A DNA stretch of 64,000 nt from Flavobacterium sp. (GTDB lineage: Bacteria; Bacteroidota; Bacteroidia; Flavobacteriales; Flavobacteriaceae). The position numbers and the translations under genes are program-made. This document shows positions 45,410-46,243 of this stretch, piece by piece. Numbering within the stretch: the first letter of the stretch is position 1; each line of letters begins with the position of its first letter. Under the pieces are notes generated by a model. That model was not told the origin of the DNA, ran no database searches, and worked only from the letters and a program-made list of their open reading frames with translations. The DNA is taken from positions 3,567 through 67,566 of the forward strand of contig JAKFBW010000055.1 of the NCBI GenBank assembly GCA_036676965.1, given 5' to 3'.

Positions 45410-45485
45410 AGAAAAAAAAAGAATATAGAGGATAGAGTAAAAAGGATAGACTTTGTGTTACCTGCAGTTTTAGGACGACAAAAAA

Positions 45486-46133
45486 ATGAACCGATATCAA
45501 TATAAATACTTTACAATTGAAGTTCTCGACGAACCTACATATAAATATGGCTCGACAGACAATAATTTTAATTATTCAAAGTATTATTTCAATGATGATG
45601 CGGAGAAATATCCAGTCTCAAAGCACGGAGTTAAAATTTATCAAGACAACCAAATTATTAATAGTTGTATAATAATTGGTTCGGGCGGTGCGACAGGTGT
45701 TCATCAAAATTCATCCCTCCTAAATAACAATCAATTAGTAATCTGTTGTTGCGACACCATATTTTGTTTGACACTTGCTGACCTAGAATTAAAATGGAAA
45801 ACTCAAGCTGACCAAGCTACTTGCTTCAAATTATTCAAATTACAAAACGATTATTTAGTTCATGGAGAACTTCAAATAACTCGACTTGATAAGGATGGAA
45901 AAATAAAATGGCAATTTGGTGGTGCAGACATTTTTGTTTCAATTGAGGATGAAGAAGAATTTAAATTGGCAGAAGATCACATTATACTTACAGACTTTGG
46001 AAAAACAAAATACAAAATAGACTTTGACGGAAAGCTACTGTGGGACACGTATGAACGGACACAAAAAACAGCAGGTAAAAGCACCTTGACAAAAGCGGGG
46101 CTAACTTGGGTACAGAAACTTTTTGGTAATTAA
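45486..46133 (+). CDS. AT-rich orphan protein (beta-propeller-like), cassette-like
   Basis: LELKW...W.FGG.DIF propeller-like repeats; flanked by TGTTACCTGC (45456) and GCAGGTAAAA (46071). Confidence 0.65.
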   Translation: MNRYQYKYFTIEVLDEPTYKYGSTDNNFNYSKYYFNDDAEKYPVSKHGVKIYQDNQIINSCIIIGSGGATGVHQNSSLLNNNQLVICCCDTIFCLTLADLELKWKTQADQATCFKLFKLQNDYLVHGELQITRLDKDGKIKWQFGGADIFVSIEDEEEFKLAEDHIILTDFGKTKYKIDFDGKLLWDTYERTQKTAGKSTLTKAGLTWVQKLFGN

Positions 46134-46243
46134 TAAACATTAATGGAAGCTTGACAGATGAATCTTCAAAAATTTTAACCAATCTATATTCTATGTTCTC
46201 TTCTCTTTTTTCTATTTTCTAAAATCTAACCTCTAACTTCAAA

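What the first reader, a model, noticed from the sequence alone, without database searches (positions are those of the whole stretch)
45421..46240. Single-gene cassette dropped into the loop of a heptamer hairpin
Seen: left of the gene are ATAGAGG ATAGAGT AAAAAGG ATAGACT units; right of it are the complementary AATCTAT ATTCTAT...TTTCTAT TTTCTAA AATCTAA CCTCTAA units, i.e. two halves of one inverted array split by ~720 bp. The insert begins TGTTACCTGC (45456) and has the near-complement GCAGGTAAAA (46071) at the gene end, with the ORF reading through it (KTAGKSTLTKAGLTW). Inference: an integron-like Bacteroidetes cassette has used a heptamer hairpin as a secondary target. This is the clearest hint in the window that the arrays are insertion sites.
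Basis: partly seen in the sequence, partly recalled or inferred. Interest (0 to 1): 0.62.

Follow-up and report, generated by a model that had tools for sequence, protein, structure and literature searches.

The report
Stray integron-type cassette between two genes
A single foreign gene carrying the hallmarks of an integron-style gene cassette sits between two housekeeping genes of a Flavobacterium, inside a host hairpin of 7-base repeats; it belongs to a Bacteroidota cassette system whose recombinase lacks the integron-integrase hallmark domain.

Summary
ATAGAGG-type units lie at 45425-45452 and TCTAT/TCTAA units at 46181-46236. The insert starts at TGTTACCTGC (45456) and has a 13/14 inverted match at 46065-46078, inside the ORF.

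The insert (45458 to about 46172) is an integron-type gene cassette. Similarity to relatives in more than 25 unrelated Bacteroidota/Ignavibacteria contexts starts exactly at G|TTACC. After the 191-codon core comes an attC-like site, and its R'' co-varies with the cassette's first bases.

The window copy can probably no longer move. Its R'' reads AAA instead of AAC, and the last ~32 nt (L'/R') are missing. The ORF has lost its stop and reads 24 codons into the attC.

The same genome holds a cassette platform on another contig: a frameshifted Xer-like integrase without the IntI extra domain, an attI-like site and 8 attC matches. Eleven more attC matches lie on 11 other contigs.

A same-genus species (G034) has ldc-yraN with an uninterrupted hairpin colinear with the window's joined flanks. 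Metagenome strains show full, 5'-deleted and empty alleles.

The claim that heptamer arrays are insertion sites in general is not supported: 0 of 12 other dispersed attC sites and 0 of 36 other family loci lie next to such arrays.

The parts
44378..45409 (+). ldc, LD-carboxypeptidase (host gene, left neighbour)
   Evidence: Pfam PF02016 and PF17676. It lies directly upstream of yraN in 29 of 30 same-genus loci examined.
45415..45452 (.). Left host array: an A-run followed by ATAGAGG ATAGAGT AAAAAGG ATAGACT. The stretch 45415-45429 is the left hairpin arm.
   Evidence: TRF. Inverted repeat I13, 45415-29 / 46183-97, is 13/15 complementary. It is colinear with the G034 left arm GAACATAGAATATAGA. 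It is absent from the other 36 loci of the cassette family.
45457..45458 (+). Left junction G|TT, the inferred crossover point
   Evidence: Similarity to family members in unrelated contexts starts exactly at GTTACC. In L042 and L044 the preceding base is T, not G, as expected if the cassette proper begins with TT.
45458..46172 (+). Integron-type gene cassette: leader, ORF and truncated attC. The right end is uncertain within 46165-46188.
   Evidence: GC is 33.4% (GC3 27%) against 42% and 38% for the neighbours.
45458..45485 (+). Cassette leader TTACCTGCAGTTTTAGGACGACAAAAAA. Its first ~14 nt are the former R' half, complementary to R''.
   Evidence: Conserved as GTTnnnnnC(A/T)ATTTTAGGACGAC upstream of this gene in many loci. 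The motif also heads unrelated cassettes (G000 C129 near 22612; the next cassette in L045).
45486..46133 (+). ORF215. The core is residues 1-191 (45486-46058), a four-bladed half beta-propeller. Residues 192-215 are translated attC.
   Evidence: No Pfam, NCBIfam or PADLOC hit. 387 relatives found. AF2 model pLDDT 87.9 and all-beta; residues 193-206 and 210-215 score below 50. Foldseek matches BamB/PQQ-type propellers and four-blade designer half-propellers.
46065..46079 (+). R'' box of the attC, AAAACAGCAGGTAAA. The conserved AAC triplet is mutated to AAA at 46077-79.
   Evidence: Alignment A2. Pairs of R'' and cassette 5' end across loci, with compensatory changes.
46081..46101 (+). L'' box of the attC, intact, lying inside the ORF extension
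   Evidence: It aligns with L'' of the other attCs. The L''/L' stem has 16 pairs, 13 of them with compensatory changes in at least one sequence.
46107..46172 (+). Conserved unpaired central part of the attC. The match stops at model position 102 of 134, so L' and R' are missing.
   Evidence: cmsearch with model R1, 20.5 bits, E 0.006, model positions 37-102.
46181..46240 (.). Right host array of TCTAT/TCTAA units. The stretch 46183-46198 (TCTATATTCTATGTTC) is the right hairpin arm. The stretch 46213-46240 is a conserved yraN-proximal repeat.
   Evidence: TRF. TCTATATTCTATGTTC is the exact reverse complement of the G034 left arm. The proximal part is shared with G034 and G079, and similar TCTAA-type units precede yraN in G083, G017 and G072.
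46244..46603 (+). yraN (UPF0102 family; host gene, right neighbour)
   Evidence: Pfam PF02021. Found in 58 of 61 genus genomes.

Best explanation
The 716 bp from 45458 to about 46172 are one gene cassette of the Bacteroidota integron-like system. That system consists of a Xer-like tyrosine recombinase, an attI-like site and folded attC sites of about 134 nt, with crossover at G|TT. I infer the following history. A circular cassette came either from the genome's own array on contig C129 or from outside. The recombinase inserted it at a non-att 'secondary' GTT in the loop region of a host intergenic hairpin between ldc and yraN. This left host G (45457) joined to cassette TTACCTGC. The cassette carries a promoterless gene co-oriented with ldc and yraN, so it is probably expressed by read-through. 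The gene encodes a cytoplasmic four-bladed half beta-propeller of unknown function, probably a binding or inhibitor protein. The copy was later immobilised. R'' AAC became AAA, the last ~32 nt of the attC (L' and R') were lost, and in this subclade the stop codon was lost, so the ORF runs 24 codons into the attC. Shown here: cassette identity, boundaries, attC structure and its decay, a resident platform, and the empty and deleted alleles. Inferred: who catalysed the insertion, the exact target triplet, how the gene is expressed, and what the protein does.
For: (1) Boundary. In L033, L036, L038 and about 25 further loci from unrelated genomes and contexts, similarity to the window starts exactly at GTT(A/G)CC. 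L042 and L044 carry T|TTACC.

(2) attC. After the core ORF comes AAAAACAGCAGGTAAC, then L'', about 75 nt of central sequence, then L' and AAAC|GTTA, followed by the next cassette. AAC and GTT are invariant. RNAalifold finds a 16-bp L''/L' stem with bulges, and 13 pairs show compensatory changes.

(3) R'' co-varies with the cassette's own first bases: L038 GTTGCC/GGCAAC, L049 GTTAGGTGC/GCACCTAAC, L081 GTTGGGTGC/GCACCCAAC, and L070.

(4) Arrays. In L056 the order is recombinase, attI-like site, glyoxalase cassette, this gene, then a DUF2310 cassette. L040 carries beta-lactamase-fold and GNAT cassettes.

(5) Own genome. C129 holds a recombinase 42-45% identical to those of L056 and L038, followed by an array. 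The attC model finds 19 matches in G000, 8 of them on C129. Same-type attCs occur in 52 of 61 genus genomes.

(6) Foreignness. The gene is absent from 35 of 36 same-genus genomes. Relatives are 70-80% identical across several orders of Bacteroidota. GC3 is 27% against 45% and 34% for the neighbours.

(7) Empty site. The G034 ldc-yraN spacer is a contiguous hairpin (z -2.55) and is colinear with the window's joined flanks. An X17 contig joins ldc to yraN through 51 nt.

(8) Decay. The attC model matches only positions 37-102 in the window. R'' reads AAA. Strains in X20, X19 and X16 carry a 592-bp deletion, 45418-46009.
Against: The right junction is not a clean ...AAC G|TT. L' and R' are missing, so the integrase route rests on the left junction alone. 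A later ~32-nt deletion has to be assumed. The only integrase of this type in the assembly is frameshifted. It could have been inactivated after the event, or the frameshift could be an assembly error. The recombinase family lacks the IntI additional domain, and no experiment shows that it recombines these sites. The hairpin reading of the flanks is statistically weak within the window (z -1.63). The closest empty allele (X17, about 93-96% identical) has an unrelated 51-nt spacer with no arrays, so the pre-insertion sequence in this lineage has not been observed directly. Evidence for expression is a single 187-nt metatranscriptome contig.
Confidence: 0.8

Rival explanations
1. Arms and gene form one mobile unit. 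On this reading the inverted heptamer arrays came in together with the gene, as earlier notes propose for S23p/IVS-type genes bracketed by heptamer arms elsewhere in this window.
For: Earlier notes report a gene bracketed by inverted heptamer arrays at 15538-16033 of this window. Neither flanking array has a local partner, so the only inverted matches found for each array are with the other.
Against: Of 37 loci of this cassette family, only the window copy has period-7 arrays beside it. Similarity to other copies starts at G|TT, to the right of the left array. G034 has both arms without the gene, and the yraN-proximal repeats occur in at least 5 species that lack the gene.
Confidence: 0.04
2. 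The cassette arrived without a site-specific recombinase, for example by illegitimate or microhomology-mediated recombination after transformation, or as part of a longer homologous exchange.
For: The right end lacks L' and R'. The resident integrase is frameshifted. The locus is deletion-prone: a 592-bp deletion and changes in unit copy number are seen among strains.
Against: The left end coincides to the base with the canonical cassette boundary seen in more than 25 independent contexts. A random breakpoint would not do that. The genome holds 11 further attC matches on 11 contigs other than C129, which suggests repeated integrase activity.
Confidence: 0.12
3. The unit is a small transposon or MITE-like element bounded by the 14-nt terminal inverted repeats at 45458-71 and 46065-78.
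For: The inverted repeat is 13/14 complementary and brackets the core ORF. It is conserved and co-varies across the family.
Against: Conservation continues about 94 nt beyond the right repeat. That extra stretch is shared with attCs of unrelated cassettes. In arrays the right repeat is followed by L''...L' and by the GTT of the next cassette. No target-site duplication is seen. The repeat is explained as R'' pairing with R' in the circular form.
Confidence: 0.02
4. The two arrays are unrelated. One would be a 3' element of ldc and the other a 5' repeat of yraN, so the cassette simply sits in an ordinary spacer and not in a hairpin loop.
For: Complementarity is weak (70-72%), and the joined flanks fold with z -1.63. 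The 46213-46240 repeats recur upstream of yraN in several species with no partner arm.
Against: G034 has a 16-nt-arm hairpin at the homologous place. The window's TCTATATTCTATGTTC is the exact complement of the G034 left arm, and AGAATATAGA is shared on the left.
Confidence: 0.25

Closest known systems
Integron gene cassettes inserted at secondary (non-att) sites: class 1 integron cassettes found outside integrons at GWT/GNT-type sites, as described by Francia 1993 and Recchia & Hall 1995 (recalled from memory, not checked here)
   Same: A single promoterless ORF with a 3' attC. The left junction is G|TT. It lies outside any array, is co-oriented with host genes and is later fixed in place.
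   Different: The recombinase family lacks the IntI additional domain. The attC is a uniform ~134-nt type. The attC here is truncated, and the ORF reads into it.
rAID-1 (recombinase-associated acquired interbacterial defence) clusters of gut Bacteroidales (Ross et al., bioRxiv 10.1101/471110)
   Same: [quoted passage not shown] Co-directional low-GC gene arrays. Repetitive intergenic sequences described as reminiscent of integrons.
   Different: Cargo in the arrays seen here is typical integron cargo (glyoxalase, GNAT, beta-lactamase fold, DUFs) rather than mainly T6SS immunity genes. The hosts are environmental Flavobacteriales, Sphingobacteriales, Cytophagales and Ignavibacteria. Identity to the B. 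fragilis recombinase was not tested. The window holds one stray cassette, not a cluster.
Sedentary chromosomal integrons and CALINs, i.e. attC clusters lacking an integrase (IntegronFinder 2.0, PMC9024848)
   Same: Homogeneous attC family within a genome. Arrays next to an integrase, plus dispersed attC sites without one. A degraded integrase.
   Different: IntegronFinder requires the IntI-specific domain and reports almost no integrons in Bacteroidetes. Here, attCs of this type occur in 52 of 61 genomes of one genus.
Acinetobacter pdif modules (genes flanked by Xer sites)
   Same: Xer-like recombinase and single-gene modules.
   Different: pdif sites are 28-bp double-stranded sites with inverted arms on both sides of a module. 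Here the site is a ~134-nt folded attC at the 3' end only, with a G|TT crossover and arrays headed by a dedicated recombinase.

Membership tests
Integron gene cassette (attC-bearing) | attC with R''...AAC and GTT...R' triplets | tested here: met
   AAC and GTT are invariant in 12 family attCs. In the window copy itself R'' is mutated to AAA and R' is lost. The family meets the feature; this copy is a decayed member.
Integron gene cassette (attC-bearing) | Imperfect L''/L' stem with bulged bases, maintained by structure rather than by sequence | tested here: met
   The stem has 16 pairs, 13 with compensatory changes, and unpaired bases inside the 5' arm. The window keeps L'' only.
Integron gene cassette (attC-bearing) | The cassette's first bases (TTRRRY...) complement its own R'', because the two were joined in the circular form | tested here: met
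   Compensatory pairs in L038, L049, L081 and L070. Mismatched pairs in L035, L040, L046 and L054.
Integron gene cassette (attC-bearing) | Tandem arrays of mostly promoterless, co-oriented ORFs next to an integrase and an attI | tested here: met
   L056, L040 and G000 C129. Not met for the window copy, which stands alone.
Integron (sensu stricto, IntI-run) | Integrase carries the IntI-specific additional domain around patch III and passes TIGR02249 | tested here: not met
   Scores are 177.8 bits against a cut-off of 265 and 106.8 + 96.4 bits for G000. Against VchIntIA (2a3v), 25 residues stand where IntI has 68.
Integron (sensu stricto, IntI-run) | Recombination of the folded bottom strand of attC by the integrase | not testable with these tools
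   This needs a recombination assay.
rAID-1 (Ross et al.) | 5' XerD-like recombinase at least 44% identical to BF9343_RS08045 | not tested
rAID-1 (Ross et al.) | At least 2 co-directional downstream genes with GC of 41% or lower | tested here: met
   The C129 array has 34% GC and is co-directional with the recombinase. Not applicable to the lone window cassette.
MITE / TIR transposon | Element ends at terminal inverted repeats and is flanked by a target-site duplication | tested here: not met
   Conserved sequence runs about 94 nt past the right repeat, and no duplication is present.

The most novel reading that the evidence does not exclude
Extruded heptamer hairpins may be preferred off-platform landing sites for the additional-domain-less Bacteroidota cassette integrase, through a GTT exposed in a single-stranded loop acting as a pseudo-att site. 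That would tie together two features of flavobacterial genomes: genes sitting inside 7-base-repeat hairpins, and integron-like cassettes. It would also mean these integrases can seed genes anywhere such hairpins exist.
Probability: 0.08. Interest if true: 0.7.

Novelty: new variant of a known kind. Interest (0 to 1): 0.4.

Why it matters
This locus documents a cassette of the Bacteroidota integron-like system outside its platform, with a base-precise G|TT left junction. Natural populations still carry full, partly deleted and empty alleles of the site. It is therefore field evidence that these recombinases, which lack the integron-integrase extra domain, use the same crossover point as integrons and can place genes at non-att sites. 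It also shows how a cassette becomes an ordinary chromosomal gene: the attC decays and part of it is absorbed into the reading frame. The wider point is that attC sites of this type occur in 52 of 61 sampled genomes of one genus, in a phylum that integron surveys report as nearly integron-free. Earlier notes of this scan have already made that point several times, and the rAID-1 paper partly anticipates it, so this finding adds a case rather than a new principle.

Tried and rejected
- **Family searches on ORF215.** Pfam, NCBIfam and PADLOC gave no hit.
- **IntI in the genome.** TIGR02249 found nothing above cut-off. The best hit turned out to be the Xer-like cassette integrase.
- **Reading the 51 letters of the X17 empty allele.** Laying reads on exactly the gene ends gave nothing. 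Adding 30-70 nt of non-matching flank produced loose ends. The middle of the 51 nt rests on an overlap of two 30-nt consensuses, one with agreement of only 0.63.
- **Exact right junction.** Three candidates remain: after 46165-46172 (end of the model match), after TTTTAAC at 46179, and after CCAATCTA at 46188. CCAATCTA is shared with L033, but AATCTAT is also host sequence in G034. I could not resolve this.
- **attI remnant on the left.** The left flank ATAGACTTTGT resembles the L039 sequence TATATTTGTGT before GTTACC. The similarity is too weak to claim an attI remnant.
- **ATAGACTTTG repeat (45446 and 46017).** I considered it as the cause of the strain deletion. The deletion ends (45417 | 46010) do not use it.
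- **RNA evidence.** One 187-nt contig only.
- **Literature on flavobacterial integron-like arrays.** Nothing specific was found in the held library. This is not proof of absence.

Full report
**What is there**

The region reads ldc (44378-45409, LD-carboxypeptidase), a 76-bp spacer, a 215-codon ORF (45486-46133) with no family match, a 110-bp spacer, and yraN (46244-46603, UPF0102).

TRF reports both arrays: 45425-45450, score 31, and 46183-46221, score 43. The 13/14 inverted repeat 45458-71 / 46065-78 is real.

Heptamer arrays are a feature of the whole genome. There are 186 period-7 arrays against 79 of period 6 and 60 of period 8. Other arrays in the window form strong local hairpins, with z-scores of -4.9, -6.8 and -3.1.

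The two arrays around the ORF have no local partners and are only 70-72% complementary to each other. The joined flanks fold weakly (z -1.63).

**The insert is an integron-type cassette**

The gene is absent from 35 of 36 same-genus genomes. It nevertheless has 387 relatives. These are 70-80% identical across Flavobacteriales, Sphingobacteriales, Chitinophagales, Cytophagales and Bacteroidales, and the family also reaches Ignavibacteria.

In these unrelated contexts, DNA similarity to the window begins exactly at GTT(A/G)CCTGC(A/T)ATTTTAGGACGAC. In L042 and L044 the base before TTACC is T rather than G. This fits a crossover between G and TT.

Most relatives have 191 codons. Directly after their stop comes AAAAACAGCAGGTAAC, the complement of the cassette's first bases. 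A GC-rich box follows, then about 75 nt of central sequence, then the complementary box, then ...AAAC|GTTA and the next gene.

Twelve such sites, 131-135 nt long, align well. AAC and GTT are invariant. RNAalifold finds a 16-bp bulged stem, and 13 of its pairs show compensatory changes.

The box after the ORF co-varies with the cassette's own 5' end: L038 GTTGCC/GGCAAC, L049 GTTAGGTGC/GCACCTAAC, L081 GTTGGGTGC/GCACCCAAC. This is expected if the two were joined in a circular intermediate. These are the defining features of attC sites and cassettes.

**The system behind it**

In Pedobacter jejuensis (L056) the order is a 365-aa tyrosine recombinase, an attI-like region ending ...ATGAG|TTGGCAGTA, a glyoxalase cassette, this gene, and a DUF2310 cassette. 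In Hymenobacter (L038) the gene directly follows the recombinase. L040 carries beta-lactamase-fold and GNAT cassettes.

The recombinase has PF13495 and PF00589 domains but falls below every curated cut-off: IntI 177.8 bits against 265, archaeal XerA 185.7 against 220. Against VchIntIA it has 25 residues where IntI has its 68-residue additional domain. It is therefore not an IntI. The family is large, with more than 7,700 proteins at E <= 1e-30.

The closest published description I found is rAID-1 of gut Bacteroidales. That system has a XerD-like recombinase, co-directional low-GC arrays and intergenic repeats 'reminiscent of integrons'. IntegronFinder 2.0 reports almost no integrons in Bacteroidetes.

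**The window's own genome has a platform**

Contig C129 carries a recombinase 42-45% identical to those of L056 and L038, but with a frameshift after about 85 codons. It is the only recombinase of this type in the assembly.

Next to it lie an attI-like site (...GTCAGTAGTATATACAA|GTTGTAGGC) and an array. A covariance model built from the 12 attCs finds 19 matches in the genome. Eight are on C129 and eleven lie on 11 other contigs.

The same model finds attCs in 52 of 61 genomes of the genus, with up to 55 per genome (the number of candidates scored per genome was capped at 55).

**State of the window copy**

The attC aligns with the family from R'' through the central part. Three things are wrong with it. 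R'' reads GGTAAA instead of GGTAAC. The stop of the core ORF is lost in this subclade. After ...GATGAATCTTCAAAAA the similarity ends.

The model matches only positions 37-102 of 134, at 46107-46172. L' and R' are therefore missing, and the copy should no longer be excisable.

The 24-residue tail of the protein is translated attC. AlphaFold gives most of it pLDDT below 50 (193-206 and 210-215). The core is a confident all-beta fold (mean pLDDT 87.9) that resembles four blades of BamB/PQQ-type propellers and designed four-blade half-propellers.

GC is 33% (GC3 27%), against 42% and 38% in the neighbouring genes and 34% in the C129 array.

**The target**

Synteny between ldc and yraN is conserved in 29 of 30 relatives, with spacers that differ widely.

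G034 has a contiguous 118-bp spacer with arms GAACATAGAATATAGA and TCTATTTTCTATGTTC around a 29-nt loop containing ATGTTTTA (z -2.55). The window's TCTATATTCTATGTTC is the exact complement of the G034 left arm. The window's joined flanks align colinearly with the G034 spacer.

The yraN-proximal repeats at 46213-46240 recur in G034 and G079. Similar TCTAA-type repeats precede yraN in G083, G017 and G072.

The arrays are therefore host DNA, and the cassette sits in the loop region next to the right arm. The simplest reconstruction of the target is ...GACTTTGTG|TTTTAACCAATCTAT....

**Population alleles (Logan contigs)**

- Full cassette: runs X1-X13 and a minor contig in X16.
- 592-bp deletion of 45418-46009: the dominant form in X20 (378x), X19 and X16. 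It removes the left array and five-sixths of the ORF but keeps the attC remnant.
- Empty allele: a lineage in X17, about 93-96% identical, with ldc, 51 unrelated nt and yraN, and no arrays.

Array unit number also varies. X20 has an extra TTTTCTA after 46207, and an X17 contig has a shorter left array.

**What is not supported**

Heptamer arrays are not general landing sites. None of 12 other dispersed attC sites in this genome has a period-7 array within 2.6 kb. Of 37 loci of this cassette family, only the window copy has such arrays beside it.

With 186 period-7 arrays (roughly 100-190 loci) among an estimated ~3,800 intergenic spacers (gene count not determined here), a chance landing has odds of a few per cent. 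That is suggestive, but it is a single event.

**Verdict**

This is a decayed, off-platform cassette of the Bacteroidota integron-like system. It was very probably inserted by the Xer-like integrase at a secondary GTT in a host hairpin loop.

Noticed in passing
outside the window: G000 contig C129:16000-29000 (minus strand): An integron-like platform. It has a Xer-like integrase (about 28967-27904), an attI-like site and an array. The integrase is frameshifted near a GC-rich palindrome translated as KPACRQAGS. The attI-like site reads ...GTCAGTAGTATATACAA|GTT. The attC model finds 8 matches on this contig.
   Followed up: partly
outside the window: G000 contigs C14 (about 7.4 kb) and C132 (about 4.2 kb): attI-like sequences nearly identical to the C129 one precede cassettes, but tblastn finds no integrase of this type nearby. 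These may be platforms that lost their integrase, or duplicated attI sites.
   Followed up: no
genus-wide (genome search, 61 genomes): attC sites of the ~134-nt type occur in 52 of 61 genomes of the genus. One complete genome (G010) has 45 listed matches, many of them between 0.89 and 1.11 Mb.
   Followed up: partly
window 45418-46009, seen in runs X20, X19 and X16: Related strains carry a 592-bp deletion that joins the A-run after the ldc stop to TACAAAATAGACTTTGACGG inside the ORF. The cassette gene is therefore dispensable in nature.
   Followed up: yes
window 46207 (X20) and 45419-45444 (X17): Heptamer arrays change by whole or partial units between strains: +TTTTCTA in X20, and -18, -4 and -1 nt in an X17 contig. 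This fits slippage-type turnover.
   Followed up: no
cassette leaders: window 45466-45480; G000 C129 near 22612; next cassette in L045: The motif ATTTTAGGACGAC follows GTTnnnnnC in cassettes carrying unrelated genes. It looks like a shared leader element, perhaps an extension of R' or an expression signal. Its role is unexplained.
   Followed up: no
L059:690-736: Upstream of the family gene, an R''-like AAAAACGGCAGGTAAC is separated from GTTACCTGCTATTTT by only 4 nt. This is a minimal palindromic site without L boxes.
   Followed up: no
window 22827-23283: A minus-strand ORF of roughly 115 codons (about 22900-23250) is flanked on both sides by AAGTTAG-type arrays, each with its own local partner. 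This shows that 'bracketing' by arrays can arise simply because arrays are frequent in spacers.
   Followed up: no
L030 (G026), ldc-yraN spacer: This relative has a ~450-bp spacer full of CATATAAG/CTTATATG-type inverted repeats instead of heptamer arrays. The spacer at this locus is hypervariable across the genus.
   Followed up: no
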